DNA of 64,000 nucleotides from Planctomycetota bacterium (GTDB lineage Bacteria; Planctomycetota; PUPC01; DSUN01). Position 1 is the stretch's first letter; every line of letters starts with the position of its first letter. The stretch covers positions 2,560 to 66,559 of the forward strand of contig DAOOIT010000021.1 in NCBI GenBank assembly GCA_035384565.1, in the 5' to 3' direction. The position numbers and the translations under genes are program-made. Under the pieces are notes generated by a model. It saw nothing but the letters and a program-made list of their open reading frames with translations. It was not told the DNA's origin and did not search any database. Of the stretch, positions 35,151-57,677 are shown piece after piece.

Positions 35151-35927
35151 CTACGGGCCCGCGGGGCGGGTGTCCGTGAACCGCGCGGGCATGACGCCGT
35201 GGTGCCCGCAGTACTCGAGCACCTTGTGCGACGTGAGCATCTGCGTGTCGCCCTCGCGCTCGCGGGCCACCTGACCCGGGGCGAGGCCCTCGTGCCCCAG
35301 GCGCCGCATCTCCTCGGTGTCGTGGCCGGGGTGTGCCACGATCAGGTAGGTGCCAGGCCCGGCCGCCTCGAGCCGCGCGATCAAGTCGTCGGCCCGATCC
35401 TCGTACCTCCAGGGCGACCGGGGCAGAGGCTCGTAGCCGCGCCCCCCGTGCCGCAGGCCCTCGCGCGCCATCAGCGCGTCCAGCCGCTCGCGCACGCCCG
35501 GCAGCCAACTGAAGCCCATGTGCTCGTCGAGGTACGCGATCTTCAGGCCGGCGGAGCGGGCGCGCGCGAGCTGGGCCTCGATCTCGGCCAGCACCTCGTC
35601 GGCATTGCCGCCCCGCTCGTGCGTGATGTTGGGCGTGCGGTGGAAATGGCCGTTCGCGTCCACCAGCGTCGGCACCCGCTCGGGCGGGAGGACGGGGCCC
35701 CACTTCACCGCGTCCCACTCGGCGTTGATTGTGGCGTGGAGGCCCACGCACACGTCCTTGCGGCCGGCGAGCATGGCCGCGGCCTCATCGGCGAACGGGC
35801 AGCAGGCCATCACGCCCACGTTGAGCGCCAGCCCCGCCTCCACGCACTCCATGATCGCCTGGTTGGCCGTGTGGCACGAGCCCGCGTCGTCGGCGCGGGC
35901 GAGGAGACGGATTCGAGGATTCTGCAT
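35151..35927 (-). CDS. YdjC/ChbG-family carbohydrate deacetylase
   Basis: ATG at 35927 with GGAAGGAGG upstream; overlaps the upstream stop as TGATG. N-terminal LLARADDAGSCHTANQAIMEC matches YdjC-like. Confidence 0.6.
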   Translation of the reverse strand: MQNPRIRLLARADDAGSCHTANQAIMECVEAGLALNVGVMACCPFADEAAAMLAGRKDVCVGLHATINAEWDAVKWGPVLPPERVPTLVDANGHFHRTPNITHERGGNADEVLAEIEAQLARARSAGLKIAYLDEHMGFSWLPGVRERLDALMAREGLRHGGRGYEPLPRSPWRYEDRADDLIARLEAAGPGTYLIVAHPGHDTEEMRRLGHEGLAPGQVAREREGDTQMLTSHKVLEYCGHHGVMPARFTDTRPAGP

Positions 35928-38662
35928 CAGTGGCCTCCTTCCCCAAGCGTGACCCTCACGCCGTCGGGGCAGTCGTACTCGACGTGGACCTTGCGCCCCT
36001 CGCGCCGCCACTCGATGCGGAGGGGGCCTCTTGGATGCGGATAGGCGCCACGCGCCCACTCGAGCGTGCCTGGCTGCGGGAGGATGCGGACGACGTCGGG
36101 GTTGCCGGGCTCGGGGAACTGGACGCCGAGGACGGCCGAGGAGAGATACCAGGTCGCCGCGCTCGACCAGGCGTGGCAAAGGCTATCGGTCTGCGGCCAG
36201 TGCTCCCAGCAGGTCCACGCGCCCCGGTCGAGGAGCCAGCCCCAGGAGCGGCGGATGAAGTCCTCGGCCTCCGTGGCGCAGCCGTGGCGGTAGAGGGCGC
36301 CGAGGCCGTAGAAGGCGAAGTAGGAGCCGATGGTGGCGACCGTCTCGCCGTTCGGGCCGCTGGGGGTGAGGTTGCGCTTCAGGGCGCGGACGAGCCAGTC
36401 GAGCGCCGGCTGCACCTGGCCGCCCTCGGCGATGTCGTAGAGGAGCGCCAGGGCGTTGGCGGTGACCGACGGCGGAGCGTCGGGCACGGCAGCCGGCAAG
36501 TGCTCGACGAATGCCTGGTGCCTCTCGCTCCAGAAGCTGGCGCGGATGGCGGCGGCCAGGCGGTCGGCCCGCTCGCGCCAGCGCGTGGCGAGGGCCGCCT
36601 CGCCGACGAGGTCGAGCACGTGGGCGCCGTCGGCGAAGGCGCGCTGGATGAAGCAGTTGAGGCCGCACGTCACGCGGCTGCCCTTGGCCTGGGGGCCATC
36701 CACGTAGGGGTGGAGCGAGGAGCCGTCGCACAGTTCCGTGTCCTCGGCCTGGAGGGCGTCAAGGCCCGCAAGCAGGCGTTTGAGGCCGGGCAGCATCTCG
36801 CGGAGGAACGCGGCGTCGCCCGTGCGTGCCCAGTAGTGCCAGAGGCACTGGACGAGGATGGCCGAGTAGTCGGGGTGGCGGCCCGGCGGTAACCCGTGCG
36901 GGCAGGGGCGGATGAGGCCGTTCTCGCCCTGCGACTGGAAGAAGAGGCCGATGCAGCGGCGGAAGAGCGCCGTGTCGCCGAACGCCGCGAGGTTCGAGTA
37001 GAACTCGGCGAAGAAGTCGCCCGTGTAGAGGCCGCGCTCGCGCCAGGGGCAGTCGAGATAGGCGTCCTCCATGCAGGCCCGTAGGGTCGGCGGCCCGAGC
37101 GCCCAGATGCGGTTGAGCAGGGGGTCCGAGCACTCGAACGAGCCAATCGGCTCCACGGGGTAGGCTGCCCGCGTGAGCGACACGCTGTGAAGCTCGAAGG
37201 CCGACAGATCGCCCTTCACGAGCACTTCGAGGTAGCGGCAGCCGCGGGGGTGGAAGGTCTGCCACGTCTGCCGCCCGTCGCGGGCGACATAGCGCTCCAT
37301 CATGTCCACGAAGTAGCGCCAATGCACTGCGGCGGTGCCGTCGGGGTTGAGGCGTTCGGTGTAGGCCACATCCACCACGGTGCCCGCCTTGGCCGTGAAC
37401 TCGAGCACCGGCCGCCCGAGCACCTCGCCGCCGAAGTCGAAGAGCAACGCCAACGCTGCGCCTTTCGGAGGCGCCGCGGGCAGTCTCGTTTGCCCGTGCG
37501 CTTCCAGACGCTCGAAGGTTCTCCACGCGCGTTCGCGGCACGGCGTATCGGCCTTCCTCTCGCGCGGCCAGGGCTTCCACGGCCTCAGGGCCTGGGGCAG
37601 GTCGTCGGGCGACGCGAGCGGCCAGGCCACGCGGTCGGCCTCGGCGGCGAGGGCATCCTCCCACAGCCCGCCCACGAGGAACGTGTTCGGGGAGCCAATC
37701 TGCCTCTCGGCGCTCAGCTCCAGACCCGCCTCGCGCGGCAGGGCGAGATAGAAGTCCCACCAGTCGTGTTTCACGGTTTCGACCATGAGGAACGTGTTCC
37801 AGCCCGCGCGGAGGCGGAGCGGGAAGTCGCGGCGGAGATGCTCGTCGCGGCGGGAGGCCGGCAGGACTTGCTCGCCGTTGACCCAGTACTTGCCCCACCA
37901 GGCGCCGAACGTCGTCTCCTGGTCGCGCGGCGAGTGGAGGAACGCCATCACGGCCACGCGGGCGTCGGTGTGCAGGCCCTTGCCGCCCGTCGCCACCACC
38001 ATGAGCGAATAGACGTCCTCGCTCGGGAACTCGCGCGCGGCCCAGGCGCCGAGGCAGCGAACGGGAGGTTGCCTGCTCTCGTCGAGCAGGGGAATCGAGC
38101 GGGGCCGCAACTGCCCCCAGTGCTCGGGATGCGCGTGGAGAACCGCACGTGGCCAGCCGCGGTCGTCGAAGTCGGGCCGCTCCCAGCCAAGCGGCATCTT
38201 GCGCGCGTCGAGATGCTCGGCGGGGTTGAGGGCGAACGACATGTAGTGCGTGTCGGGCCTGTGGCCGGGCGACTCCATCGCCCGCCACGACTCGTCGGTC
38301 GCAATGGCGATGGCATCGCCCGCTTCGTCGCGGGCCTCGCCCCAGGCGATGAGACCGCCGAAGCTCGGCTCCGAGTGGAACGTCACCCCGCCCGTGCTGT
38401 TGACGACGAGGGCGATGGCGTTCCGCCCCTGTCGCAGCGCGGGCGCGAGGTCAACGGTGTCGTACTCGGGCTTGGAGGGGAAGAACCGCGCCGGCCCGTG
38501 GCCGAGCACCTGGCCGTTCACGATGAGGCGATAGCGCGTGTCGGCGAACACGTTCAGGCTGCCGCCGGCCGGCTTCGCCGCCAGCTCGAATGTCGTGCGA
38601 AACAGCCCCCAGCGGTTCCGCCCCCTGCCCTCGGCGTCGAACCAGATGAACCTGGCGTCCAA
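35927..38662 (-). CDS. Glycoside hydrolase family 78 alpha-L-rhamnosidase
   Basis: TTG start at 38662 with AAGGAGG 5 nt upstream (the RBS contains the upstream TAA). GH78 N-terminal signature ARFIWFD...RYRLIVNGQVLGHGP and the six-hairpin catalytic region ACMEDAYLDCPWRERGLYTGD. Confidence 0.75.
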   Translation of the reverse strand: MDARFIWFDAEGRGRNRWGLFRTTFELAAKPAGGSLNVFADTRYRLIVNGQVLGHGPARFFPSKPEYDTVDLAPALRQGRNAIALVVNSTGGVTFHSEPSFGGLIAWGEARDEAGDAIAIATDESWRAMESPGHRPDTHYMSFALNPAEHLDARKMPLGWERPDFDDRGWPRAVLHAHPEHWGQLRPRSIPLLDESRQPPVRCLGAWAAREFPSEDVYSLMVVATGGKGLHTDARVAVMAFLHSPRDQETTFGAWWGKYWVNGEQVLPASRRDEHLRRDFPLRLRAGWNTFLMVETVKHDWWDFYLALPREAGLELSAERQIGSPNTFLVGGLWEDALAAEADRVAWPLASPDDLPQALRPWKPWPRERKADTPCRERAWRTFERLEAHGQTRLPAAPPKGAALALLFDFGGEVLGRPVLEFTAKAGTVVDVAYTERLNPDGTAAVHWRYFVDMMERYVARDGRQTWQTFHPRGCRYLEVLVKGDLSAFELHSVSLTRAAYPVEPIGSFECSDPLLNRIWALGPPTLRACMEDAYLDCPWRERGLYTGDFFAEFYSNLAAFGDTALFRRCIGLFFQSQGENGLIRPCPHGLPPGRHPDYSAILVQCLWHYWARTGDAAFLREMLPGLKRLLAGLDALQAEDTELCDGSSLHPYVDGPQAKGSRVTCGLNCFIQRAFADGAHVLDLVGEAALATRWRERADRLAAAIRASFWSERHQAFVEHLPAAVPDAPPSVTANALALLYDIAEGGQVQPALDWLVRALKRNLTPSGPNGETVATIGSYFAFYGLGALYRHGCATEAEDFIRRSWGWLLDRGAWTCWEHWPQTDSLCHAWSSAATWYLSSAVLGVQFPEPGNPDVVRILPQPGTLEWARGAYPHPRGPLRIEWRREGRKVHVEYDCPDGVRVTLGEGGH

Positions 38663-38672
38663 CGGTGCCTCC

Positions 38673-41600
38673 TTACTTCCCAAACGCGAACGGGCACGAG
38701 CGGGTGGGGTCGGAGAACATGAGGCTCGCGGGCCAGTTCACCTTGTAGTCCTGCTCGTTGCCCCAGGCGTTGATGCACGAGAGGGAAACGCCGACGCGGA
38801 CGACCTCGCCCGGGGCGCCCGTGGTCGGAAGGATGTCCTTGCCGCCGCGCCCGGCGATGCCGCCGACGAGCTTCACCTCGGCGAAGGGGATGCGGGCCAT
38901 GACGGCATAGCCGGGCCGGCCCCTGAACGAGGCGCCCGTGACGGCCCCCAAGTGCCGCCCGAGGGGATGGCTCGACAGGTCGTCGAGCTTCGCCGCCCAG
39001 ATGCAGTCGCGCGGCAGGGCGTAGTTGGCCGCCCACTCCTTGCCCTCGCGGTTGTGGTGGCGGTGCTTGAAGAGCGCGGGAGAGCCGTCGCTTGTCATCC
39101 CCAAAGTAAACTGCTCTTCTTCCAGCCACAGTTCCACGCAGTCGAACTGCCACATGGCGTTGCCCTTCGGGTCATCGAAATGCATGGTGTCGTCGGCGAC
39201 GAGGAACATGGCATAGAGGCTGGCCCCGTCGTGGGCGATTGCGCCGATGGCTGTGCCTGCGCGAAAGGTCTGCCAGAGGTCGTCTGGCACGGACCTACGG
39301 AACCCAGGTGTAGGAAGCATAACGATTTGCGGCATGACGCCCGCGTTCTCCCAGGGAGCCCAGTCGCCGCTGGCTTTCAGCTCAGGCACCCTTGGGATGG
39401 TGAGGAGGCGCTCGACGGGCTTGCCTTGTGTTCGGTCAGGCAAGGGCGGCGGACCGGCTTGGGTGGCAGGATTGTTCCACGTGAAACGTATAACGCTACG
39501 CTCGATTGTGTCGGCACCCTCGACGCGCAGCCGGGCGAAACGCCCGATTGCGTCGTCTTCCACATAGGCCCCAGGCTTGCCGTCGGGGCGCAGGTAGGCG
39601 TGGACGCCGTAGCGGAGGTCCACGAAGCCGATGCTGTAGTTGCACGGCCAGCTCCAGTTGCCCGTGGCGAGGCGCAGGCCGTCGGCGTTGAAGAGGTCCA
39701 CCTGTCCGCCGAAGCTCTTGGCGGCCATGATCCAGGCGTTCTTCCCGTCGTTGACGGCGCTGACCGACATGTAGTTGCCGCCCGAGCTGAGGGCGAACCA
39801 GAGGGGCGTGCCGTCGGGCGTGGAGCGGCCCACGCCCGTGCCGTCCGCGCCCCACCCGGGCACCATCTTGTTGTAGAGGTCGGTCACGGCCAGGTAGTAG
39901 ATGTCGCCCGTCGTGCGGTCGGCGGTGATGGCGGCATTGCACTTCATCTTGCGGGGCGAGGGGTCCTCCTTGGGGCCGAGGGTGACGGGGTGGTCGAAGT
40001 CGAAGGTCGGGTTGCCCTGGCCATCGAGGCCCTGGAAGGGGATGCGCTTGAACTCGAGGCTGTAGTGCCCGCCGGCAATGATGTCGCCGCCCTTGGTGAA
40101 GGCGATGGTGGTGTAGGCCCAGCCGCCGAGGGCCTTGTGGCGGTTGTCGTAGTCGAGGGCGGTGCGGGGCTTCAGCGGGTCGCTCACGTCAAGGAGCAAC
40201 AGGTCGCCCTTGCCGTGGCGGCTGAAGTAGAAGATGAACGGCCTGCCGCCGAGGACGACCGCCCCGTGGGGCGAGCCGGGCGAGAGGCTCACCGGTTTCT
40301 TCTCACCGGGCACCTCCACGCTGCCGCGGGGGCTCTCGACCAGCCACTCCCAGGCCCCTGTCTTCGGGTCAACGCGGAAGATGCCCGGCCAGCAGTAGAC
40401 GTATTCGGGCTGGGTCGGGTGGACGACCGCGGTGTCCATGAAGTTGCTCAGGGCCTCAAAGGCCACGGCGCCGCTCTCGGGCCACAGGCAGCGGAGGCGT
40501 GCGTGCTCGCACAGCAGCAACCGCCCGTCGGGCGTGATGGCCGCGTCGCGCGGGTCGCTGAAGAGGTCGGACGCGACGGGTGTCCACTCCCCCTTCGGCC
40601 GCTCGCGGCCCAGGGTGCGGATGATCTTGCCGCTCGCGGCGTCGAGCCAGGCGACCTTGGCCGCCTTGCGGTCAATGACGGCGAGCCGCCCCGCGCCGGC
40701 GGCGAGATACTGCGGTGTCTCGAGGCCCGTCGCGTAACGCTGGCCAACCGAGCCATCGGGTCTGAGCGAGACAACCTCCTTTGTGGGCGGGACGTCCCCG
40801 TCCCGCGAATCGCGGCGTGTGGACACGCCGCCCACAGGGCCTGCCAAGGCCCACAGGGCGCCCTTCTCATCCGCCGCCACGTCGCCGGCGCCGGGCAGGG
40901 GCCAATCGCGCTTCTTCTGGCCGGAAGCGAGATCAATAGAGCGAATGAGACTGAGGTCGGGGATGCCCACGAAGGCGGTCTGGCCGATGACGGCCACGCC
41001 CGCGACGCCGCCCGGCGCCTTCTCGCCTGGGGCGAAGACGGGATAGCTGTCGGCCCCGTTGGCCATCTTCGCCCGCTCGCAGGAGGGCGTGAGGCGGATC
41101 AGCTTCGTCCCCTCGCCCTTGCCCACCGCGCCGATGAAGCCTTCCACAGGAGTTGTGGGCGGGATGTCCTCCTCCCGCGTCTTTGTGGGCGGGACGTCCC
41201 CGTCCCGCGTATCGCGGCGTGGAGACACGCCGCCCACAATGCCCGACACGCCGCCCACGAGGGCGAGCCCCCCGGTGAAGTCTTTCTCGGCGAAGTTGGT
41301 GGCCTGGATCGGTTGGCCGGACGATGCGTAGCGTCGGAGCGGGTAGCCCGCCTCGTCATAGATAGTGGTGATGACGAAGCCGCCATCGGGCAGCGCCACC
41401 ACGCGGTCGGCATTGTCGCAGTGGTAGGCCCCCATCGCCGCCCCGTTGTCGCCCATTGCCCCGTCGTCCACGATCCGCACGTCGTGGCTCACGCTCCGCA
41501 CCTCGTACTCGCCCGCGGGCGCCGGCTGCCCGAGGTCATCCAGTCCATCCCAGTAGAGATCGGCCACGCGAGGGGCGTCCGCAAGCAGTGTCCGCACGAG

Positions 41601-42698
41601 GGTGCCATCGGTGCGGTAGACTCCGGCGCTCTGGCGGACCTGCGCCGGCCCTCTGGCCTTCAGCGTGGCAATCTTGCGCCAGCCTGCCGCGGGTCGGGGG
41701 TCGGGATAGTCGTAGGCCCCAACGCACACGGCCTTGCCGCGGACTCGGAGAGGCCTGCCGTCGCGGTCCTGCGTCGGCTCGGGATCGATCTTGGCGCCCA
41801 CGGCCATGCCCGGGAGCCCTCCACCCCAAGCGGCTGCGGGGTCAATGCGCAGGTCGCCCCCGTCGGGGTCAACGAAGCTGGGGGGCACGTGCGCGCTCTG
41901 GCGGTCTTGGCCCGAAGCGGCGTCCCACTCATAGGGGTTGGCGATGGCCGGCACAGCGCCCCAGGGGCCGGTTGTGCCGGTGAGAACGTTGTGGCGGCTG
42001 GTCCAGGCGGCGGCGGAGACTTCGTCCGCAATCAGGTTCGAGTTGTTGGCCGCAAGGATCGAGTTGGTGATAGAGCCCCATCCGCACGCGAGCAGGAGCG
42101 CCCCGGCCGTGGACGAGCCGGTGATCGTGGCGTGTGTCACCCGCGTCGCCCGCGTGCCCTTGACGAATAACCCGATGCCGCAGCGGCGGAAGACGCAGGC
42201 GTCCACGCTCAGGTCTTCCGTGCTTTCCGTCGCCAGGCCGCGCGAGAGGCCGTCGAAGGTGCATCGCTCGACAGTGATTCCGAGACACCTCTCTGCCTTG
42301 ACCCCCTGCCCGGCCCCGCGGAACGTGAGGCCCGAGGCGACAAAGCAATGCAACCGATAGAGGTGGAGCGCCGGCTCCATCGGGTTGGCCGGCTCGAGGA
42401 CGACGGGGCCGGGCTTCTCGCCCGTGAGCTTGCCGCTCTCGTCGCCGGTGATCGCCATCGTCGAGCCGTCGGCGGCGAAGCGCTCGGCGAGGAGCGCGGC
42501 GCAGCGGTAGGTCCCCGGCCCAATCACGATGGAATCGCCGTGGTTCACCGCCTGCACGGCGCGCAGCACCGTGGCGAAGGCGGTCTTCGGCGTCTTGCCG
42601 TCGGCCTGATCGTTGCCGCTCTGGCGGACGAACCAGGTTTGGGCGAAGGCCGAAGAGGCGGCGAAGAACACGACAATGCATTGCAGGGCGGTTCGCAT
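38673..42698 (-). CDS. Giant secreted protein P1 (1341 aa): parallel beta-helix N-domain, beta-propeller-like core, CBM9/DOMON-like C-terminal module
   Basis: Signal peptide MRTALQCIVVFFAASSAFA. Pectin-lyase-fold repeats in residues ~90-230. The C-terminal module is related to the C-termini of P2-P4. Contains three copies of the 55-bp palindromic element. Confidence 0.6.
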   Translation of the reverse strand: MRTALQCIVVFFAASSAFAQTWFVRQSGNDQADGKTPKTAFATVLRAVQAVNHGDSIVIGPGTYRCAALLAERFAADGSTMAITGDESGKLTGEKPGPVVLEPANPMEPALHLYRLHCFVASGLTFRGAGQGVKAERCLGITVERCTFDGLSRGLATESTEDLSVDACVFRRCGIGLFVKGTRATRVTHATITGSSTAGALLLACGWGSITNSILAANNSNLIADEVSAAAWTSRHNVLTGTTGPWGAVPAIANPYEWDAASGQDRQSAHVPPSFVDPDGGDLRIDPAAAWGGGLPGMAVGAKIDPEPTQDRDGRPLRVRGKAVCVGAYDYPDPRPAAGWRKIATLKARGPAQVRQSAGVYRTDGTLVRTLLADAPRVADLYWDGLDDLGQPAPAGEYEVRSVSHDVRIVDDGAMGDNGAAMGAYHCDNADRVVALPDGGFVITTIYDEAGYPLRRYASSGQPIQATNFAEKDFTGGLALVGGVSGIVGGVSPRRDTRDGDVPPTKTREEDIPPTTPVEGFIGAVGKGEGTKLIRLTPSCERAKMANGADSYPVFAPGEKAPGGVAGVAVIGQTAFVGIPDLSLIRSIDLASGQKKRDWPLPGAGDVAADEKGALWALAGPVGGVSTRRDSRDGDVPPTKEVVSLRPDGSVGQRYATGLETPQYLAAGAGRLAVIDRKAAKVAWLDAASGKIIRTLGRERPKGEWTPVASDLFSDPRDAAITPDGRLLLCEHARLRCLWPESGAVAFEALSNFMDTAVVHPTQPEYVYCWPGIFRVDPKTGAWEWLVESPRGSVEVPGEKKPVSLSPGSPHGAVVLGGRPFIFYFSRHGKGDLLLLDVSDPLKPRTALDYDNRHKALGGWAYTTIAFTKGGDIIAGGHYSLEFKRIPFQGLDGQGNPTFDFDHPVTLGPKEDPSPRKMKCNAAITADRTTGDIYYLAVTDLYNKMVPGWGADGTGVGRSTPDGTPLWFALSSGGNYMSVSAVNDGKNAWIMAAKSFGGQVDLFNADGLRLATGNWSWPCNYSIGFVDLRYGVHAYLRPDGKPGAYVEDDAIGRFARLRVEGADTIERSVIRFTWNNPATQAGPPPLPDRTQGKPVERLLTIPRVPELKASGDWAPWENAGVMPQIVMLPTPGFRRSVPDDLWQTFRAGTAIGAIAHDGASLYAMFLVADDTMHFDDPKGNAMWQFDCVELWLEEEQFTLGMTSDGSPALFKHRHHNREGKEWAANYALPRDCIWAAKLDDLSSHPLGRHLGAVTGASFRGRPGYAVMARIPFAEVKLVGGIAGRGGKDILPTTGAPGEVVRVGVSLSCINAWGNEQDYKVNWPASLMFSDPTRSCPFAFGK
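40782..40836. repeat. 55-bp palindromic element (family 2), full copy, in-frame in P1
   Basis: tgtgggcgggacgtccccgtcccgcgaatcgcggcgtgtggacacgccgcccaca. Terminal inverted repeats tgtgggcgg/ccgcccaca. Encodes VGGVSTRRDSRDGDVPPTK. Confidence 0.65.
41155..41262. repeat. Cluster of one full and two partial family-2 elements, in-frame in P1
   Basis: Full copy at 41185-41239 (…cgcgtatcgcggcgtggagacacgccgcccaca) flanked by partial copies. Encodes GGVSGIVGGVSPRRDTRDGDVPPTKTREEDIPPT. Confidence 0.6.
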
Positions 42699-42759: not shown

Positions 42760-42764
42760 GGGGC

Positions 42765-52500: not shown

Positions 52501-53329
52501 TGACGGGCACGAGGCCGGGCGGCTCAGCCTTGCGGGCGGCCATCCAGGGCGGGGGCGGGAGCGAGAGGTTGCCTTTCTCTTCGAGAATCAGCCGGCCCCA
52601 GGCCTTCGTGTTCGTCCAGAAGAAGTCGGTCTGCGTCTCGCCGTCGGCCAGGTTGTCGGTCACGCGGCTGCGGGGCCAGGTCTGGGCGTCGGCGTCGCCC
52701 CAGAACATCTCGAGGCCGAGGCGCAGGTCGGCTGTGCGGGCGGGCGCCTTGCCGTCGCTGGTGATGACCTTCCACGGGAGCTTGATCTCCTGCGTGTAGC
52801 CCCTGCCGTCGGGCGCGAGGCGGAATGCCTGCTGGGCCCCGAGCTGCTCGGGGTAGACGGGGCGGTCCACCTTCGCCGCCTCCGCCTTGCCGCCCACCGG
52901 GCCGTAGTGGACCGTCATCGCCGGCTTGCGGCCGGGCGCGTAGTACCAGGCATCAATGTGGCTGATGAAGCCGGCCATGTTGCAACGGAGTTGCACGGCA
53001 TCGGACCGCCAGCCGTTGCCGACCATCGTGGCGGGGTCGATCTTGTTCACCATCGGCGTGGTGTCGCGAAACACGAAGGCCAGGTAGAGCGCCTCGGCGT
53101 CCCACATGGCGGCCACGCGCACGCTCTCGGTGTCGAGGAGGTGCTCGACGTCCTTGCAGCACACGATGGCCCCCGACGTGTCCCATTCCCCCAGGTCACC
53201 GTCAATCGCCACCTTCGCGGGCGCCGGCACCGCGTGCAGCCCGTGATTCAGCGTCCGCTCGGCGAGGGCGGGACAGCTCAGGGCGAGAACGCACGAGGCG
53301 AGGCAGAGAGCCAGGCTGGCTGAGCGCAC
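49520..53329 (-). CDS. Giant secreted protein P3 (~1269 aa), paralogue of P2
   Basis: GTG at 53329 with GAAGGAGAAG upstream (inside the last codons of P4). Signal peptide, then N-module DGDLGEWD...EALYLAFVFRD and a C-terminal CBM9/DOMON-like module. Confidence 0.55.
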   Translation of the reverse strand: MRSASLALCLASCVLALSCPALAERTLNHGLHAVPAPAKVAIDGDLGEWDTSGAIVCCKDVEHLLDTESVRVAAMWDAEALYLAFVFRDTTPMVNKIDPATMVGNGWRSDAVQLRCNMAGFISHIDAWYYAPGRKPAMTVHYGPVGGKAEAAKVDRPVYPEQLGAQQAFRLAPDGRGYTQEIKLPWKVITSDGKAPARTADLRLGLEMFWGDADAQTWPRSRVTDNLADGETQTDFFWTNTKAWGRLILEEKGNLSLPPPPWMAARKAEPPGLVPVTFEMPHDGFASIAIEDAAGNRVCSLLGGVPFAQGHHTVFWSGLSDRNEPLPLGQYRWVGLTRGPIDVRWRMSFYQPNRVCPWANSDGTGAWGPDHGNLQCVATGEGRVFLGGLGAEAGFPLFAVDEQGRKVWTAKSGEPDRLAFCEGILYAYTSRGDSNWLGITPRGLMKFDAETGQWLDLKGPDGKPTKRLALLGDKETAAGFAVLPSGVFLSVQGKSLIRMFDRHTLQPVRDLRLDGAGELGAAGPGRLLVATNTGLVELNATTGDIHTIVQGDFSTAQAVAYHPDGTAYAAFGAPLHQVRCYWRDLLGRRRTTEIGQRGGRTQNGWYEPAEGFLNPSGLALDSAGRLWVVENSQRPKRVSVWKGRRWQRDFLGDTGYGGGGVINPLDPTMAFYRDMQFRVNLETGDWQLRQVGLVLPEGAAKLGIAVGEGDHATGGNVEAEYMMAFQGRAYIHKCRGARQIFRERPDRRWALCVHLDPEKRLAWLDRDDDGRVDDDEVVRGGSADWGGTDYWGLRPSQNLDLFFSRGVARPGLRLRCVAVTPGGTPLYDLTRFEPMAGECQNGIGLRDGSYNSGCAGERGDYFDEMRRIWPADAPPRRTFWFRGEHTGRWTYRLPEPGVVLYPFQAHGVADLSAGGEVVCWVSDFGQRYLFTDDMLYVAQLFADARASFESWPDRPERGFLANQMAPGQESFHGTFSRLADGRYLLTSGFTDCRVFEVTGLDSVRRIAGETEIRPQHLPRMAEIRQLRLTGGKSAAAVTVPRAAKPIALDGKLDDWPREGAVEIKVDAERGARVLAACDEANLYVAWEVRDPSPLLNKAPRWELAFKGGDAVDLFWRPPGEKLGDPNPRAGDLRLLLTELEGRPRAVLYRPVSAAKRPFTFDAFEGAGRPNAVTMDEVRLADEVKVAVAKGNAGYTVEAAIPWALLGVAGGASVPRGEGRIDFGVLFSDPKGTATALRACWHNRDTNITSDIPTEARLQPALWGACRFAP

Positions 53330-53333
53330 GATG

Positions 53334-56300
53334 TCACTTCTCCTTCTCGAATTCGAGCGTCCCCCACAAGTTCGGCTGGAGGCGGGCCTCGGAGGGGACG
53401 TCGGACATGATCTTGGTGTTCTGGTTGGCCCAGTAGACGCGGTCCACGGCGCGGGTGCCGGTCTGGTCGGAGAGGACTCTGCCCACATCACCACGGATGA
53501 TCGGGGTCTTCGCGGGGTCGAGGTGGAGGGCGGCGAGCGGCACGGCGGCCTCGAGGACGAAGCGGTCGCCCTTCCGCTCGACGGCGACCTTCGCCTCCGC
53601 GAGGATGGCGACGCGGTCCATGTAGAGGGTGCGCCAGGGCGAGGAAAAGGGGAGCCGGGCCTCCTTCGGTGTGCCAGGGACGACGTAGTCGTAGAGGATG
53701 GCGGCGGGCCTGCCGCCGACCATCGTGAAGCTCAGGCGGATATCGCCCTCGGCCGCGTCGGAGCGCTTCGGGTCGAGGCCGGCCCGCGTCTCCAGCATCA
53801 CGTCCACCACATCGCCGGTCTTGAAGGCCTCGAGGAAGTCGTCGGCCTTCGCGGCGTTCTGGAAGACCGCGCGGTCGTCCTTGCCCTCGAAGAGGACGTA
53901 GAGGTGGGCGTCGTCGTAGCCGAGGGCGAAGCCGTCGCCAAAGCGCTCCTTCGGCCAATCGTCGGGCTTTCCATCCACCGCGACGCCCTGGAGGCGGCGA
54001 ACGGTCTGGCGTCTGGGCTGGGCAACGGCGAGGGCGCGTTGCTGGCGCAGGCGCTCGGCCGCGAGGAAATGCTCCTTCGTGACCGTGAACTCGCCGCCCG
54101 CGATGCGGCGGATCCCGTCGAGGCCGCGAAGCTCGACGACCGAGCAATGGGGCTGGCCGACGACGTAGAGGAACTTGTGGGCCTCGCGGCGCGGGGAGAA
54201 GAGACCGCCTGAAGGCGGGACCACGAGCGAGCGAACCTTCTGGAAGGTGCCGCCGAAGTGCTCGTCGCCGAGCGAAACCTGGTTCATCAGGGCATCGGAG
54301 GGCGGCGTGTCCATCCGCCACGAGAGGCCCCGCCGCACGTCGCGGAACACGCGGTCAATGTAGAGGCCGTCGGCGGTGAAGAGGTAGGTCGCGCCGAGGT
54401 TGCTGTTGAGGCAGATGACCTCGCCGACCTCCTGGTTGACCCAGGCGGAGCCGAAGAAGCGGGTGGGCGCGATGAGTACGCCCGGCTCGCTGCCGAGGGC
54501 GCCCGTGTCGTGTCCCGCGTGGAGGCCGGGCCAGAGGTTCTTGTAGCGCCAGCGGATCCGGCCGTCGGGGGCCATGCTGGTGACGTAGTGGTCGAGGCTG
54601 ATGGCGTTGCCCTCGCGGTCGGTGAAGACGGCGTCGGCGGCGTGCCGGCCCTCGAAGGTGTGGAAGGCCGTGGGCAGGCGCCAGACGGGATAGCCCTCTC
54701 TCGTGAGCCGCTCGACGCGGAAGAAGGCGATGCCCGCGACGCCGTAGTGGCCGTCGCTGAGGGCGACCTCGAAGTCCTCGTTCATGCGGAACTGCCACGT
54801 GGCGCCTGCGCGGTCGGCGACCTTCTCGCCGAGCATGAGCTTGCCGAATTGCACCTCGTCGCGCTGCACCTTGCCGTCGGCGTTGGCATCGGTCCAGGCG
54901 AAGATCGCGTGGTCGGCAGGCACGTCGAAGCGCTTGCGCAGCCACTCGGGCACGGTGCCGAGGGCGGCGACGGGGCGGACGAAGCCCCCTTGGGCCTCGC
55001 GGGGCAGGGACGCCCCGCCCACCGGGTCAACGTAGACCCAGAGCGTGGTGTTGCTGCCGTTGGCCCAGCCCTGCCAGCTTGTGAGGAAGAGCGTGCTCGT
55101 GCGGCGGAAGAGCGACCGCTGCTCGCGGCGAAAGGGATAGGAGGGGTAGCTGCCGAAGCGGTCGTAGCGGTCGTCGTCGCTCCGCCAGAAGAGATGCGTG
55201 AGGCGAATGGCGCCCGTCCGGGGGTCGCGGCGGAACTCTTTGCCGTGGTAGAAGAAGTGGTTCTCGTCGGCGGGGTCCATCTCGCCGCCGCCGCCGTACA
55301 TCGGCGGGCCGAGCACCTGGTTGATGCAGCGGCCGGCCAGGTCCCACACGCTCGTGCGCTTGAGGTCCTCACTGAATTCACAAACCCAGACGTTGCCCTT
55401 GACGTCCACCTCGACGCCCGAGGGGCTTTCCAGGTTGTCGGGGTCGAAGGCGCCCACACGGTGCTTGCCCGGCTTGCCGATGGCGCGGAGCGGCTTGCCG
55501 TCGCGGGAGAAGACCTTCACCTGGTGCACGGGGTCCATCTCGCCCACGTAGAAGCAGCCTGCCTCGTCCACGGCCAGCCCGAGCGGATTCGTGAGGCCGG
55601 TCACGACGGGCCTCACGTCGCCCGTCTGGCGATGGATGAGGACCACACGCGAGCCGCTCACGGCAGCCAGATGGTCGGCGTCGTAGGGGCGGATGCGGCC
55701 GGGCTTCTCGAGGGCGATCTCCTTCACGACCGTCATCTGCTCGTGGTCGAGGAGCTTCCAAGCGATGTTCCAGGCGAAGCCGGCGGGCCGGGCGGCGAGG
55801 TTCTTCGAGAGGTCCAGCACGAGGACGACGTTCTTCGCGCGGTCGGCGAGCCAGGCGCGGTCGCCGGCGACGGCGAGGCCCTGGATATCGGCCTTCTCGT
55901 CCTTCGCCAGGTCGCGGCCGAGCAGGCGGCGGCTGGCCTTGGTCGTGCGGTGGACCTGGATCATCACGATCTTGTCCTTCACCCAGCCGCCCTGCTCGAC
56001 GTAGTAGATGAAGTCGCCGTCGGCGGCCAGCACACGCGGGCAGGCCAGCCAGATGCGGCCCGAGCCCCAGAGTTTCTTCATGTCCAGGTCGGCCTCGAGC
56101 AGCGCGTGGCCCGCTTCGCAGAAGGTGCCGGCCCACATGGTGGGCGGCGTGTCCCCACGCCGCGTGTCGCGGGACGGGGATGTCCCGCCCACAACGGTGC
56201 CCACCACATCCTGCGGCGGCACGTGGTCGGCCAGCCAGCCGCCGGTCGTGTCGGCCGTGATCCAGGCCAGCCCGTGCTTCTTGAGCGGGTAGTAGGAGAA

Positions 56301-57677
56301 CAGGTAGTGGAGCGACAGCGGCGGGTGCCACAGCCCCCGCCAGCGGTAGCGGCCGGGCGGGGCGACTTTCGCCGCGTCGGGCGACGGCTCGTGGAAGAAG
56401 TGGTTCGGCCGCTCGTACGGCGGCCAGTAGTCCTCCAGCGTCCGCAGGTCCCACCAGGCCGTGTGCCGTCCCTTCGGGAAGCTTTCGCCGGACACGAGGT
56501 TCTCGATGACGCGGCCCTTGTCATCGAGTATCTGGATGGTGGCCAAGCCGCCCTGCGGCAGGTCGAACGTGATGGGCACGATGCCCTCGGGCGCCGCGCT
56601 GGGCTTCGCGAGGCGTGTGGGGGCGGGGCGGTCGGCGAGGTCCTCGAACACGACGAGTTCGCCGATGGAGACCACGGTGGGGTCGGCCCCTTCGCCGCCG
56701 GCGGCGAGCTCCTTCGTGGTGCCTGCGATGGCCAGGAAGCGCAGGGCGCGCGTTTCGACCGTCTGGCCGAAGTCGCAATAGGCCTCCCAGAAGAGCGGCG
56801 GGCGCCAGGGCTTACGGGTCGTCAGCTTGCCGATGGTCTCCCACCCCTCGTGGTAACCTCCCGCAGGTTTGGAGTCTGCGGGAGGCTGGACCCAGCGCTG
56901 GACGAGGATTTCGGCGAAGCCGGGCTGGTGGGCGCCGATGAAGGCCGCGCAGCCGCGCATCGGGCGCGGCGCGCCCCAGTCGAGCACGATCCACTCGGGC
57001 CTCTCGGGCGAAAGCGGCTCCAGGCGCTCCCCGCTCGACCAGTTGCTGTGGCCCACCGCGCCGTTGAGGAGCACGGCGGGGTCATTGAGCTGCGCGTCGG
57101 GCGCGAAGCCGCGCGAGCGCGGCCCGCTCGAACTCACAAAGAGGTCGGCCAGCGGCGCCACGTTCACGTATCGCCCCGCCAGCATCGTGGCGAAGGCCAG
57201 CTCGGCGCGGAACTTGCCGCTGCTGTCGGGCGACATCGGGCCGCTGAGCCGCACCGCCTTCGTCACCACGCCCGGCGGCAGGGGCACGACGCGCAACTCG
57301 TGCGACTCGGAGCCAGGATACGGCGCCTCGGCCCAGTTCCCGTCCTTCAGCGGCTCTGCCGCTGCGTCGGGCTTCAGGTAGCTCACGCGCCACTTGCCAT
57401 AGGCCAGCACGGTGCCGACCGGCACCGGCTGCTTGAGCGCAATGACGAAGTGCGCGTCGCCTCCCTCGGCCGTCGCCTCCGTGCGCCAGACGTCGTGGCC
57501 GATGGCCTCGGCCCGCAGAACGCCCTTGTGCGCCGCCACGCGGCCGGGCAAGGCATAGCTCCCCTCGGCGTCCGGCACCAGAACCTCCCGCAGGCTCCGA
57601 ACCTGCGGGAGGTCCGGCCCGCTCCACGCGAAGTGCATCGCCACACAGGCCATCAGAGAGACAAGGCGTCTGGGCAT
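53334..57677 (-). CDS. Giant secreted protein P4 (1447 aa) sharing the C-terminal CBM9/DOMON-like module with P1-P3
   Basis: ATG at 57677 with GAGGAAGAG upstream. C-terminus DGKPDDWPK...DDAHLYVLFEG...ARLQPNLWGTLEF. Carries one family-2 element and two REP-like hairpins in-frame. Confidence 0.55.
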   Translation of the reverse strand: MPRRLVSLMACVAMHFAWSGPDLPQVRSLREVLVPDAEGSYALPGRVAAHKGVLRAEAIGHDVWRTEATAEGGDAHFVIALKQPVPVGTVLAYGKWRVSYLKPDAAAEPLKDGNWAEAPYPGSESHELRVVPLPPGVVTKAVRLSGPMSPDSSGKFRAELAFATMLAGRYVNVAPLADLFVSSSGPRSRGFAPDAQLNDPAVLLNGAVGHSNWSSGERLEPLSPERPEWIVLDWGAPRPMRGCAAFIGAHQPGFAEILVQRWVQPPADSKPAGGYHEGWETIGKLTTRKPWRPPLFWEAYCDFGQTVETRALRFLAIAGTTKELAAGGEGADPTVVSIGELVVFEDLADRPAPTRLAKPSAAPEGIVPITFDLPQGGLATIQILDDKGRVIENLVSGESFPKGRHTAWWDLRTLEDYWPPYERPNHFFHEPSPDAAKVAPPGRYRWRGLWHPPLSLHYLFSYYPLKKHGLAWITADTTGGWLADHVPPQDVVGTVVGGTSPSRDTRRGDTPPTMWAGTFCEAGHALLEADLDMKKLWGSGRIWLACPRVLAADGDFIYYVEQGGWVKDKIVMIQVHRTTKASRRLLGRDLAKDEKADIQGLAVAGDRAWLADRAKNVVLVLDLSKNLAARPAGFAWNIAWKLLDHEQMTVVKEIALEKPGRIRPYDADHLAAVSGSRVVLIHRQTGDVRPVVTGLTNPLGLAVDEAGCFYVGEMDPVHQVKVFSRDGKPLRAIGKPGKHRVGAFDPDNLESPSGVEVDVKGNVWVCEFSEDLKRTSVWDLAGRCINQVLGPPMYGGGGEMDPADENHFFYHGKEFRRDPRTGAIRLTHLFWRSDDDRYDRFGSYPSYPFRREQRSLFRRTSTLFLTSWQGWANGSNTTLWVYVDPVGGASLPREAQGGFVRPVAALGTVPEWLRKRFDVPADHAIFAWTDANADGKVQRDEVQFGKLMLGEKVADRAGATWQFRMNEDFEVALSDGHYGVAGIAFFRVERLTREGYPVWRLPTAFHTFEGRHAADAVFTDREGNAISLDHYVTSMAPDGRIRWRYKNLWPGLHAGHDTGALGSEPGVLIAPTRFFGSAWVNQEVGEVICLNSNLGATYLFTADGLYIDRVFRDVRRGLSWRMDTPPSDALMNQVSLGDEHFGGTFQKVRSLVVPPSGGLFSPRREAHKFLYVVGQPHCSVVELRGLDGIRRIAGGEFTVTKEHFLAAERLRQQRALAVAQPRRQTVRRLQGVAVDGKPDDWPKERFGDGFALGYDDAHLYVLFEGKDDRAVFQNAAKADDFLEAFKTGDVVDVMLETRAGLDPKRSDAAEGDIRLSFTMVGGRPAAILYDYVVPGTPKEARLPFSSPWRTLYMDRVAILAEAKVAVERKGDRFVLEAAVPLAALHLDPAKTPIIRGDVGRVLSDQTGTRAVDRVYWANQNTKIMSDVPSEARLQPNLWGTLEFEKEK
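56138..56193. repeat. Family-2 55-bp palindromic element, opposite orientation, in-frame in P4
   Basis: tggtgggcggcgtgtccccacgccgcgtgtcgcgggacggggatgtcccgcccaca. Encodes VVGGTSPSRDTRRGDTPPTM. Confidence 0.6.
56855..56885. repeat. REP-like GC hairpin, copy 6, inside the P4 CDS
   Basis: aacctcccgcaggtt tggagt ctgcgggagg. Encodes ...QPPADSKPAGGY... Confidence 0.55.
57582..57613. repeat. REP-like GC hairpin, copy 7, inside the P4 CDS N-terminus
   Basis: aacctcccgcagg ctccg aacctgcgggaggt. Encodes DLPQVRSLREV, a different frame from copy 6. Confidence 0.55.

What the first reader, a model, noticed from the sequence alone, without database searches (positions are those of the whole stretch)
35151..57677. 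Locus of four giant paralogous secreted proteins with GH78 rhamnosidase, YdjC-like deacetylase, Gfo/Idh/MocA oxidoreductase and an embedded GGDEF cyclase
Four minus-strand genes of ~1270-1447 aa (P1 38673-42698, P2 42765-46676, P3 49520-53329, P4 53334-57677) share a C-terminal ~200-aa module ending W.N(Q)......D.P.EARL.P.LWG..F, which looks CBM9/DOMON-like. P2 and P3 also carry it at the N-terminus. All have central beta-propeller-like regions, and P1 adds a pectin-lyase-type beta-helix. They are tightly packed with a GH78 alpha-L-rhamnosidase (TTG start coupled through an RBS that contains the upstream stop), a ChbG/YdjC deacetylase (TGATG overlap) and a Gfo/Idh/MocA dehydrogenase. A diguanylate cyclase gene on the opposite strand, with a ~700-bp structured leader, separates the two P-gene pairs. 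The ensemble looks like an uncharacterised extracellular machinery for a complex rhamnose-containing glycan (possibly sulfated or acetylated), potentially under c-di-GMP control. None of the four giant proteins matches a named enzyme family from sequence alone.
Basis: partly seen in the sequence, partly recalled or inferred. Interest (0 to 1): 0.75.

Follow-up and report, generated by a model that had tools for sequence, protein, structure and literature searches.

The report
Paralogous secreted CBM9 propeller proteins
An uncultured planctomycete carries four large secreted paralogues of a widespread but uncharacterised protein superfamily (sugar-binding CBM9 module plus double beta-propeller) next to a rhamnosidase and a sugar deacetylase; this is most likely a glycan-harvesting locus and a good candidate for a new carbohydrate-active protein family, but no activity is shown.

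Summary

P1-P4 are Sec-type secreted members of one superfamily. P2, P3 and P4 are 27-33% identical. P1 joins them by profile comparison (E 1e-22).

**N-terminal module differs between the four:**
- P2 and P3: CBM9.
- P1: a right-handed beta-helix, nearest GH141, PL31, PL9 and GH120.
- P4: unknown (orthologues carry PA14 or discoidin instead).

**Distribution:** about 830-1,700 clusters at 50% identity, in Planctomycetota, Verrucomicrobiota, Lentisphaerota, Kiritimatiellota and Armatimonadota. Every named member is "hypothetical" or generically labelled, and there is no close PDB analogue.

**Genomic context:**
- The exact gene block recurs only in close relatives.
- The GGDEF gene is missing in one of those relatives, so c-di-GMP control is not a conserved feature.
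- The only frequent partner elsewhere is an SGNH/GDSL esterase (about 20% of loci), followed by sugar-type regulators.
- GH78, PL11-like, GH62 and GH88 genes appear sporadically.

**Verdict:** a glycan-targeting role is well supported. Catalysis and rhamnose specificity are inferred. GH78, YdjC and Gfo lack signal peptides, so they are cytoplasmic.

**Side finding:** palindromic repeat elements are inserted in frame into P1, P4 and another gene.

The parts
53334..57677 (-). P4 (1447 aa, HPD15254.1). Signal peptide, about 330-aa N-terminal module of unknown family, Ig domain, tandem beta-propeller (NHL/SGL-like blades), C-terminal CBM9-like module.
   Evidence: ORF and public gene call. 27% identical to P2 over 1148 aa. 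Weak NHL/SGL Pfam hits. Orthologues carry PA14, discoidin or BNR modules at the N-terminus instead. Three in-frame inserts are absent from orthologues.
49520..53329 (-). P3 (1269 aa, GTG start 4 nt after the P4 stop). Signal peptide, N-terminal CBM9, Ig domain, tandem propeller, C-terminal CBM9.
   Evidence: Pfam CBM9_1 E 3e-12. C-terminal module alone scores 25 bits against a threshold of 23.4. 28% identical to P2 over the full length.
48424..49464 (+). Diguanylate cyclase (346 aa). Helical N-terminal domain plus GGDEF domain with an intact RIGGDEF motif and an RDAD I-site. Lineage-specific insertion between the two clusters.
   Evidence: Pfam GGDEF E 6e-31. Motifs read from the translation. 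Present in L090 but absent in L006.
47709..48423 (.). 715-bp divergent intergenic spacer packed with perfect hairpins (palindromic repeats). Contains a 55-nt repeat also found at 14232-14286.
   Evidence: Fold z-score -8.7 against shuffles. Repeat family D17. No Rfam family. No consensus promoter or terminator hit.
46689..47708 (-). Gfo/Idh/MocA NAD(P) oxidoreductase (339 aa, no signal peptide). First gene of the five-gene cluster; its stop lies 12 nt before the P2 start.
   Evidence: Pfam PF01408 and PF22725. Weak NCBIfam similarity to inositol and glycoside 3-dehydrogenases. Junction read.
42765..46676 (-). P2 (1303 aa, HPD15250.1). Signal peptide, N-terminal CBM9, FlgD-type Ig domain, tandem beta-propeller, long helix, C-terminal CBM9.
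42727..42760 (.). 29-nt perfect hairpin repeat (class A) in the 66-bp P2-P1 spacer. One of seven copies in the window. Possible intra-operon stem-loop.
   Evidence: predicted -24.9 kcal/mol.
38673..42698 (-). P1 (1341 aa, HPD15249.1). Signal peptide, right-handed beta-helix (about aa 21-340), Ig domain, tandem propeller, divergent CBM9-like C-terminal module.
35927..38662 (-). GH78-type alpha-L-rhamnosidase (911 aa, TTG start, no signal peptide). Its RBS AAGGAGG overlaps the P1 stop codon.
   Evidence: Four GH78 Pfam domains above threshold. Start codon from the public gene call and from the sequence.
35151..35927 (-). YdjC-family carbohydrate deacetylase (258 aa, no signal peptide). Its start overlaps the GH78 stop (TGATG).
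   Evidence: Pfam YdjC E 2e-42. NCBIfam hits are all well below their family cut-offs (HpnK, carbohydrate deacetylase, chitin disaccharide deacetylase). Junction read.

Best explanation
**What it is.** The region is a glycan-acquisition locus of an uncultured Planctomycetota bacterium. It is built around four paralogues of one large, uncharacterised superfamily of secreted proteins.

**Shown**
- There are two translationally coupled minus-strand clusters: P4>P3 and Gfo>P2>(hairpin)>P1>GH78>YdjC.
- Each P protein has a Sec-type signal peptide and a constant core. The core is a FlgD-type Ig domain, a tandem beta-propeller with NHL-like blades, a linker helix and a C-terminal CBM9-fold module.
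- The N-terminal module is exchangeable: CBM9 in P2 and P3, a GH141/PL9/GH120-like beta-helix in P1, and an unknown module in P4 that orthologues replace with PA14 or discoidin.

**Inferred mechanism**
1. In the periplasm or at the cell surface, the CBM9 and N-terminal modules hold a complex heteropolysaccharide.
2. The substrate is probably O-acetylated and rhamnose-bearing, for example rhamnogalacturonan-like plant or microbial glycan.
3. The chain is presented to a conserved polar site on the tandem propeller. That site includes a D-H motif, an E-A-G motif, K-R-x-S-V-W, E-x-F-x-G and a His. In P1 the chain is also presented to the beta-helix.
4. These sites bind and probably cleave the chain.
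5. The four paralogues cover different linkages or substructures.
6. Imported oligosaccharides are then finished in the cytoplasm. GH78 removes terminal alpha-L-rhamnose, YdjC removes acetyl groups, and the Gfo enzyme oxidises a sugar.

The GGDEF gene is a recent insertion and not part of the conserved system.
For: **Fold and modules**
- Module swapping uses only glycan-related modules: PA14, F5/8C and BNR in P4 orthologues, and a beta-helix in P1 whose nearest folds are GH141, PL31, PL9 RG lyase and GH120. There is also sequence-level similarity to the XylC and PL9 N-terminal caps.

**Conservation**
- Identity is 53-60% over 1300 aa across different classes and phyla.
- Polar residues are invariant in the propellers across P2 family members plus P3 and P4. 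Some are shared with the P1 family. This pattern fits a defined active or ligand site.

**Operon context in the window**
- GH78, YdjC and Gfo are translationally coupled to the P genes.
- The block is conserved in L090 and L006.

**Context in other lineages**
- An SGNH/GDSL esterase lies immediately upstream on the same strand, found in 17-19 of 82 loci.
- A GntR-HTH plus sugar-binding-domain regulator occurs in 11 loci.
- Gfo/Idh/MocA genes recur, and a sugar-type ABC ATPase occurs in 5 loci. The last assignment was made by eye from the cluster sequence.
- An independent GH78 lies beside a P4-like member in L069.
- In L091 a 73%-identical P2 orthologue overlaps a rhamnogalacturonase-type beta-helix gene. 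It sits next to CBM11-GDSL, GH62, Gfo and PL11-C/FG-GAP genes.
- L092 has a GH88 fragment.
- L041 and L046 have an enolase-superfamily dehydratase plus GDSL.
- A FecR anti-sigma factor carries the same CBM9-like module as its sensor.
Against: - No catalytic family is recognised by Pfam, NCBIfam, PDB sequence search or fold search for the propeller core. The best propeller matches are non-enzymatic NHL and WD40 proteins and an HTCS glycan sensor.
- Most family members are solitary genes with unrelated neighbours.
- The specific GH78/YdjC context is confined to one clade plus one independent case, so the rhamnose link is thin.
- In the alignment to GH120 XylC, the nucleophile position is a Leu in P1. 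Only one invariant Asp (D225) lies next to the acid/base position.
- The CBM9 two-tryptophan clamp is only partly matched, with Phe at the Trp71-equivalent position.
- No transporter is encoded in the cluster.
- Model coordinates could not be inspected, so I do not know whether the conserved residues form a pocket.
Confidence: 0.6

Rival explanations
1. P1-P4 are non-catalytic glycan-capture or sensor proteins, analogous to surface glycan-binding proteins or the tandem-propeller periplasmic domain of hybrid two-component sensors. They concentrate polysaccharide at the cell surface or in the periplasm. Cleavage is done by enzymes encoded elsewhere.
For: - The only recognisable modules are binding modules: CBM9, PA14 and discoidin.
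- The propeller core resembles NHL and WD40 interaction domains and the BT4663 heparin-sensing domain.
- The same CBM9-like module is used as a sensor domain on a FecR anti-sigma factor.
- No catalytic family matches the core.
Against: - Identity of 53-60% over 1300 aa across phyla, with invariant Asp, Glu, His and Arg motifs, is unusually high for glycan-binding proteins.
- P1 carries a beta-helix whose closest folds are all glycan-cleaving enzymes.
- Frequent coupling to an esterase suggests sequential enzymatic processing.
Confidence: 0.28
2. P1-P4 are cell-surface adhesins or matrix proteins whose production is tied to c-di-GMP signalling through the embedded GGDEF cyclase. They would bind the organism's own or a partner's exopolysaccharide during biofilm or aggregate formation.
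For: - An active-looking GGDEF gene (RIGGDEF motif, RxxD I-site) lies between the two clusters.
- The proteins are large, secreted and repeat-rich, with lectin-like modules.
- HD-domain response regulators occur within 10 kb in 6 loci.
Against: - The GGDEF gene is absent in the syntenic relative L006 and in all other loci examined.
- The HD-domain regulators lie 3-9 kb away and are not adjacent.
- No adhesin, S-layer or anchoring domain (PEP-CTERM, LPXTG, T9SS, cadherin) was found in P1-P4.
- The operon partners are catabolic enzymes.
Confidence: 0.07
3. The CBM9/DOMON-like modules bind haem or another redox cofactor, as in ethylbenzene dehydrogenase gamma or NxrC. P1-P4 would then be extracellular redox proteins working with the Gfo oxidoreductase.
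Against: - Gfo has no signal peptide, so it is not in the same compartment.
- No cytochrome or cofactor-maturation genes are present.
Confidence: 0.03

Closest known systems
CBM9 (family 9 carbohydrate-binding module, e.g. Thermotoga maritima Xyn10A CBM9-2, PDB 1i82)
   Different: - Here the module is attached to a tandem-propeller core of unknown function, not to a GH10 xylanase.
- It is duplicated at both ends in P2 and P3.
- The Trp71-equivalent position is Phe, and the second clamp Trp could not be aligned.
- The ligand is unknown.
Right-handed beta-helix glycan-cleaving enzymes: GH141 (BT_1002), PL9 (Pel9A, BT4170 RG lyase), PL31, GH120 (XylC)
   Different: - It belongs to none of these families by HMM.
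- The helix is short, about 220-300 aa.
- The XylC nucleophile position is not conserved.
- The domain is fused to the Ig-propeller-CBM9 core.
Tandem beta-propeller glycan proteins: GH74 xyloglucanases and the periplasmic sensor domains of Bacteroides hybrid two-component systems (BT4663)
   Same: Two consecutive propellers of about 650-700 aa followed by an Ig-like or accessory domain, in a glycan-related context. BT4663 is among the Foldseek hits.
   Different: - TM-scores are only 0.17-0.31.
- Pfam reported neither BNR (the Asp-box repeat typical of GH74) nor Reg_prop (the HTCS propeller repeat) for P1-P4.
- The blades are NHL-like.
Bacteroidota polysaccharide utilisation loci and planctomycetal CAZyme clusters for pectic glycans (GH78, CE12-type SGNH esterases, PL9/PL11)
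   Same: Secreted binding or degrading proteins are co-localised and co-oriented with a rhamnosidase, a deacetylase and an oxidoreductase. Relatives sit beside SGNH esterases, PL11-like, GH62 and GH88 genes and sugar-responsive regulators.
   Different: - There is no SusC/SusD pair, no transporter and no regulator in the cluster.
- The main proteins belong to no CAZy catalytic family.
- Context conservation outside the immediate clade is weak.

Membership tests
CBM9 | Beta-sandwich fold superimposable on TmCBM9-2 | tested here: met
CBM9 | Pfam CBM9_1 (PF06452) score above the gathering threshold | tested here: met
   - P2 27.8 bits and P3 47.1 bits against a threshold of 23.4.
- P3 C-terminal module alone 25.0 bits; P2 C-terminal module alone 19.4 bits (below threshold).
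- P4 and P1 C-terminal modules give no hit.

Met for P2 and P3; not met by sequence for P1 and P4.
CBM9 | Two-tryptophan clamp (Trp71/Trp175 of TmCBM9-2; recalled from the literature) binding the reducing-end sugar | tested here: inconclusive
   In the profile alignment to 1i82, a nearly invariant Phe sits at the Trp71-equivalent position and Gln at the Glu77-equivalent position. The region of the second Trp was not aligned. Binding itself cannot be tested here.
GH78 alpha-L-rhamnosidase (gene 35927-38662) | N-terminal, concanavalin-like, (alpha/alpha)6 catalytic and C-terminal domains of bacterial rhamnosidases | tested here: met
   PF08531, PF05592, PF17389 and PF17390 are all above threshold. 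Catalytic residues were not checked. No signal peptide (sequence).
YdjC/ChbG carbohydrate deacetylase | YdjC-like domain (PF04794) | tested here: met
   E 2e-42, 146 bits against a threshold of 29.7. All NCBIfam equivalog hits (HpnK, carbohydrate deacetylase, chitin disaccharide deacetylase) are far below their cut-offs, so no substrate can be assigned.
Diguanylate cyclase (GGDEF) | GGDEF domain with an intact GG(D/E)EF active-site motif | tested here: met
   PF00990 E 6e-31. RIGGDEF motif and an RDAD I-site read in the translation. Membership of the glycan system is not met: the gene is absent in syntenic L006.
GH141 / PL9 / GH120 beta-helix enzymes (P1 N-terminal domain) | Family-specific sequence signature and catalytic residues on the beta-helix | tested here: not met
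   - The fold is shared, but only generic Pfam Beta_helix passes threshold. NosD and DUF1565 are below threshold, and the NCBIfam PelN hit is negligible.
- The XylC nucleophile D382 aligns to Leu in P1. An invariant Asp225 lies next to the acid/base E405 position.
- GH141 catalytic residues could not be mapped.
Bacteroidota-type PUL | Adjacent SusC-like TonB-dependent transporter and SusD-like lipoprotein | tested here: not met
   None appears among the called genes with Pfam annotation within 10 kb on either side.
GH74 / sialidase-type catalytic propellers | BNR/Asp-box repeats and a closest structural match to these families | tested here: not met
Adhesin / S-layer families | Recognised adhesin, S-layer or cell-anchoring domains | tested here: not met
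   No such Pfam or NCBIfam hits for P1-P4.

The most novel reading that the evidence does not exclude
The constant core of this superfamily (Ig domain, NHL-type tandem beta-propeller, CBM9) is itself a new catalytic class of carbohydrate-active enzyme, a hydrolase or lyase largely restricted to PVC bacteria and Armatimonadota. It would act together with a dedicated SGNH esterase on O-acetylated, deoxy-sugar-rich heteropolysaccharides. The paralogue arrays found in about a third of loci would represent a set of linkage specificities. This would define a new CAZy family with hundreds to thousands of members in organisms whose glycan catabolism is poorly explained by known families.
Probability: 0.3. 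Interest if true: 0.75.

Novelty: new variant of a known kind. Interest (0 to 1): 0.55.

Why it matters
PVC bacteria are major degraders of recalcitrant polysaccharides in soils, sediments, lakes and digesters. Much of their secreted proteome has no assigned function.

This locus brings together four members of a very large, strongly conserved, unnamed superfamily. Every member carries a genuine CBM9 module and an exchangeable glycan-related N-terminal module. The locus also places them in an operon with a rhamnosidase and a deacetylase. That combination gives concrete, testable substrates (rhamnogalacturonan-like or acetylated rhamnose-containing glycans) and concrete constructs to express (the P1 beta-helix, the P2 core, the CBM9 modules).

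If the core is catalytic, it is a new CAZyme family. If it is not, it is a new class of glycan-capture protein for bacteria that lack SusC/D systems.

Tried and rejected
- **PDB sequence searches** with single P1 and P2 sequences found nothing useful.
- **NCBIfam** gave no family names for P1-P4.
- **Rfam** found no riboswitch or other RNA family anywhere in the window. The idea of a structured regulatory leader for the GGDEF gene is therefore unsupported; the structure is explained by palindromic repeats.
- **Consensus promoter and terminator scan** of the spacer found nothing.
- **BLAST-level search for the window's block** in 82 family loci. GH78, YdjC, P1, Gfo and GGDEF were found only in the close relatives L006 and L039. 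Conservation of the block beyond the clade is rejected.
- **Recurrence of the L091/L092 neighbours.** The PL11-like, GH62 and GH88 genes do not recur in other loci, so a general pectin-locus association is not established.
- **Foldseek against the PDB** for a whole-protein analogue gave only generic tandem propellers with TM at most 0.31.
- **The afdb50 fold library** was unavailable. Cultured-organism homologues and annotated AlphaFold relatives could not be listed.
- **Three literature searches** found no paper describing this family.
- **The P4 N-terminal module** has no Pfam match even at E 5. A discoidin-like fold is only my reading of the sequence.
- **A haem-binding DOMON reading** of the terminal modules was considered and rejected, because CBM9 is by far the better structural and sequence match.


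Full report
**1. What is in the sequence**

The window has about 70% G+C. It matches, at 100% protein identity, contigs of an uncultured Planctomycetota MAG. P1, P2 and P4 are deposited as HPD15249.1, HPD15250.1 and HPD15254.1, all named "hypothetical protein".

ORF listing and independent public gene calls give the same map on the minus strand:

| Gene | Coordinates | Length |
|---|---|---|
| YdjC | 35151-35927 | 258 aa |
| GH78 | 35927-38662 | 911 aa |
| P1 | 38673-42698 | 1341 aa |
| P2 | 42765-46676 | 1303 aa |
| Gfo/Idh/MocA | 46689-47708 | 339 aa |
| P3 | 49520-53329 | 1269 aa |
| P4 | 53334-57677 | 1447 aa |

A GGDEF gene lies on the plus strand at 48424-49464.

The flanking genes are on the opposite strand and bound the locus. 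They are a phosphoglucomutase at 33693-35132 and a 494-aa secreted protein of unknown function at 57746-59230.

- The P1 stop TAA lies inside AAGGAGG, followed by TTG at 38662.
- GH78 and YdjC overlap as TGATG.
- P4 TGA, 4 nt, then the GTG of P3.
- Gfo TAG, 12 nt, then the ATG of P2.

There are therefore two translationally coupled units: P4>P3 and Gfo>P2>P1>GH78>YdjC. The only gap in the second unit is a 66-bp P2-P1 spacer that holds a perfect 29-nt hairpin repeat.

**2. The four large proteins are one superfamily**

- P2, P3 and P4 are clear full-length paralogues (27-35% identity, E 1e-47 to 1e-112).
- P1 is almost invisible to BLAST. Alignment of a P1-family profile against a P2-family profile gives 99.5% probability and E 1e-22 over about 870 columns, from the Ig domain to the C-terminal module.
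- All four start with Sec-type signal peptides (read).

An AlphaFold model of P2 residues 250-1303 was built from 43 sequences (pLDDT 88.6, pTM 0.86). A model of P1 residues 21-1095 was built from 49 sequences (pLDDT 91.7, pTM 0.89). Together they give this architecture:

- **N-terminal modules of P2 and P3.**
  - Pfam CBM9_1 passes its threshold there.
  - A profile of these modules picks two CBM9 crystal structures as its top PDB hits.
  - The N- and C-terminal modules are homologous to each other (hhalign 95.6%).
- **Between the N-terminal module and the propellers.** There is a FlgD-type Ig domain.
- **N-terminal domain of P1.**
  - It is a right-handed beta-helix.
  - A P1-family profile matches the N-terminal caps of XylC and 5olq at the sequence level (E 3e-5 and 8e-4).
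- **N-terminal module of P4.** The first 330 or so residues match nothing. P4 orthologues carry PA14, F5/8-type-C or BNR modules in that position.

The constant core thus carries an exchangeable module, and every identifiable module is glycan-related.

**3. How big and how conserved is the family**

- **P2:** more than 800 hits in the word-indexed search. The top 120 are all at least 53% identical over the full length.
- **P1:** about 100 full-length homologues at 43-82% identity.
- **P4:** about 50 homologues.
- **Exhaustive phmmer search** with the P2 core against 1.84 billion cluster representatives: 831 clusters at E no higher than 1e-30 and 1,697 at E no higher than 1e-10. Lengths run from about 1,200 to 2,400 aa, which indicates further N-terminal variants.
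- **Taxonomy:** in one-genome-per-species contigs, the best 80 loci all come from MAGs. They belong to Planctomycetota, Verrucomicrobiota, Lentisphaerota, Kiritimatiellota and Armatimonadota, often with several copies per genome.
- **Paralogue arrays:** 28 of 77 loci hold two or three paralogues within 10 kb. Arrays like the one in the window are typical of the family.
- **Names:** source annotations are "hypothetical", "PQQ-binding-like beta-propeller repeat protein", "BamB" or "sugar-binding protein". NCBIfam has no model.
- **Invariant residues:** across 40 P2-family members plus P3 and P4, polar residues cluster in short motifs. These are NWGGDHG, AEAG, PKRVSVW, GVHGSH and GMGGEDFGG. The D-(H/N) and E-A-G positions and the Arg of KRxSVW are also shared with the P1 family. 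This is the pattern of a defined functional site. Without the coordinates I could not check whether it forms a pocket.

**4. Genomic context**

*Close relatives*
- The whole arrangement, including GGDEF, is found in a 91%-identical relative (L090).
- In an 83%-identical relative (L006) the order is P4-P3-Gfo-P2-P1-GH78-YdjC. P3 is followed directly by Gfo, so the GGDEF gene and the 715-bp spacer are missing.
- In L006, unrelated genes are inserted between Gfo and P2 and between P1 and GH78.
- The cyclase is therefore a lineage-specific insertion and not a conserved part of the system.

*More distant loci*
- Beyond this clade the block dissolves. Among 82 loci of the P2 family, the window's GH78, YdjC, P1 and GGDEF have no BLAST-level counterparts outside L006. 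Gfo has one further counterpart, in L039.
- P1 homologues elsewhere are solitary.
- De novo clustering of neighbours found these recurrent partners:
  - a roughly 440-aa SGNH/GDSL esterase in 17-19 loci, usually immediately upstream on the same strand;
  - a GntR-HTH/periplasmic-binding-fold regulator in 11 loci;
  - several Gfo/Idh/MocA genes;
  - a sugar-type ABC ATPase in 5 loci (assigned by eye from the cluster sequence);
  - a 600-790-aa protein with no Pfam match, translationally coupled downstream in 5-6 loci.
- Informative single cases:
  - A divergent GH78 lies next to a P4-like member in L069.
  - In L091 a 73%-identical P2 orthologue's start overlaps the end of a rhamnogalacturonase-type beta-helix gene. 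It is preceded by CBM11-GDSL, GH62, Gfo and an FG-GAP/PL11-C protein.
  - L092 has a GH88 fragment and an FG-GAP protein.
  - L041 and L046 have an enolase-superfamily dehydratase flanked by GDSL esterases.
  - L031 has a GH32.
- A FecR-type anti-sigma factor uses the same CBM9-like module as its sensor domain.

Wherever the context says anything, it points to carbohydrate catabolism, and repeatedly to esterified glycans. The link to rhamnose or pectin-like substrates rests on the window's clade plus two or three independent cases. The L091 and L092 neighbours do not recur elsewhere.

**5. Most likely mechanism**

*Shown*
- P1-P4 are secreted modular proteins with genuine CBM9 modules.
- They are operon-coupled to a GH78-type rhamnosidase, a YdjC-type deacetylase and a Gfo/Idh/MocA oxidoreductase.

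*Read from the sequence*
- GH78, YdjC and Gfo lack signal peptides, so they act in the cytoplasm.

*Inferred*
1. P1-P4 bind a complex, probably O-acetylated and rhamnose-containing polysaccharide in the periplasm or at the surface.
2. The tandem-propeller site, and in P1 the beta-helix, bind and probably cleave it. Different paralogues handle different substructures.
3. Imported fragments are trimmed in the cytoplasm by the rhamnosidase, the deacetylase and the oxidoreductase.

My estimates are about 0.6 that the proteins are glycan-targeting acquisition or degradation proteins, about 0.3-0.4 that the core itself is catalytic, and about 0.35 that rhamnose-containing glycans are the substrate.

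The main rival is a non-catalytic capture or sensor role. It is supported by the fact that the nearest propeller folds are interaction domains and an HTCS glycan sensor. An adhesin or c-di-GMP matrix role and a DOMON-haem redox role are unlikely, for the reasons given under the rival explanations.

**6. The spacer and the GGDEF gene**

- The GGDEF protein has RIGGDEF and an RDAD I-site, so it is probably an active, product-inhibited cyclase.
- The 715-bp spacer folds at -350 kcal/mol, with z -8.7 against shuffles. The structure consists of several perfect hairpins.
- The spacer shares a 55-nt repeat with 14232-14286.
- No Rfam family matches it.
- A TATAAT box lies about 75 nt before the start codon (read). 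That would give a short leader.
- I read the spacer as repeat-rich inserted DNA, not as a riboswitch-like leader.

**7. Side observation: in-frame palindromic insertions**

The window contains at least three families of GC-rich palindromic elements.

- **53-nt element.** This element (GTGGGCGG...CCGCCCAC, predicted -35 to -41 kcal/mol) occurs twice in P1, once in inverted orientation in P4, and once in the 1047-aa ORF at 19522-22665. In each case it is in frame and encodes GGVS(T/P)RRD(S/T)RDGDVPPT-like peptides.
- **Comparison with orthologues.**
  - The 19-residue P1 segment 621-639 is absent from all nine orthologues compared, including the 82%-identical one.
  - At the second P1 site (about aa 483-515), some relatives carry different element variants and others carry none.
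  - P4 has three such inserts that orthologues lack.
  - P2 has one short insert.
- **Structure.** In the P1 model these segments are the only regions with pLDDT below 50. That fits tolerated loop insertions.

The behaviour recalls Rickettsia palindromic elements (from my own knowledge of that literature). I did not check whether it has been described for Planctomycetota.

**8. Novelty and verdict**

The locus is a new variant of a known kind of system: a glycan-utilisation gene cluster. Its main components belong to an uncharacterised, very large, PVC-centred superfamily. Three full-text literature searches found no description of the family.

It is a solid candidate for enzyme or binding-protein discovery rather than a surprise in principle. 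I score interest at 0.55.

Noticed in passing
window 40783-40835, 41185-41237 (P1); 56140-56192 (P4, inverted); 21577-21629 (ORF 19522-22665); related half-elements at about 41153-41180, 49684-49734 (P3) and 54998-55048 (P4): A 53-nt GC-rich palindromic element (GTGGGCGG...CCGCCCAC) is inserted in frame in at least three different protein-coding genes. It encodes GGVSxRRDxRDGDVPPT-like peptides in either orientation. The inserts are absent from orthologues that are 79-88% identical. They coincide with the only low-confidence loops of the P1 AlphaFold model. The behaviour resembles Rickettsia palindromic elements.
   Followed up: partly
window 14200-14228, 23417-23447, 24088-24116, 27789-27817, 42729-42757, 56857-56885, 57584-57612: There are seven copies of a 29-31-nt perfect hairpin (CCTCCCGCrGG-loop-CCyGCGGGAGG, predicted -20 to -32 kcal/mol). 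One lies in the P2-P1 spacer, where it could be an intra-operon stem-loop or REP-like element. Two lie inside the coding region for the P4 N-terminus.
   Followed up: partly
window 47709-48423, and 14232-14286: The Gfo/GGDEF spacer is a cluster of perfect hairpins (fold z -8.7). It shares an 82%-identical 55-nt repeat with 14232-14286. The spacer and the GGDEF gene are both absent from the syntenic relative L006, which suggests a repeat-rich insertion.
   Followed up: partly
L049 13114-15366; also L029, L054, L084, L048, L051: A 600-790-aa protein with no Pfam match is translationally coupled (overlapping stop and start codons) directly downstream of P2-family genes in 5-6 unrelated loci. It is a second conserved partner of unknown function. 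It is not present in the window.
   Followed up: no
L084 1020-2801 (cluster of 4 loci): A FecR-type anti-sigma factor has a C-terminal domain homologous to the N-terminal CBM9-like module of P2 and P3 (about 24-25% identity to window 52562-53266 and 45891-46598). The same module therefore also serves as an ECF-sigma sensor domain.
   Followed up: no
window 57746-59230 (+): A 494-aa protein with a signal peptide is transcribed divergently from P4. It has no Pfam or NCBIfam match. Further upstream on the source contig lie a GHL10/DUF4015 glycosyl-hydrolase-like gene and a PEP-CTERM protein.
   Followed up: no
L006 8328-9209 and 18042-19289: In the 83%-identical relative, the cluster is interrupted by a 293-aa ORF between Gfo and P2 and by a 415-aa minus-strand secreted protein between P1 and GH78. 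By my reading of its sequence, the 293-aa ORF resembles a DUF1016/YhcG-type nuclease. The cluster is structurally plastic.
   Followed up: no
L002 / L086 (ENA assembly ERZ795051), equivalent to about window 49520-49802: One public assembly of the same organism calls P3 as two ORFs of 1175 and 93 aa instead of one of 1269 aa. The cause could be a frameshift, an assembly error or real variation near the C-terminal CBM9 module, close to one of the palindromic half-elements.
   Followed up: no
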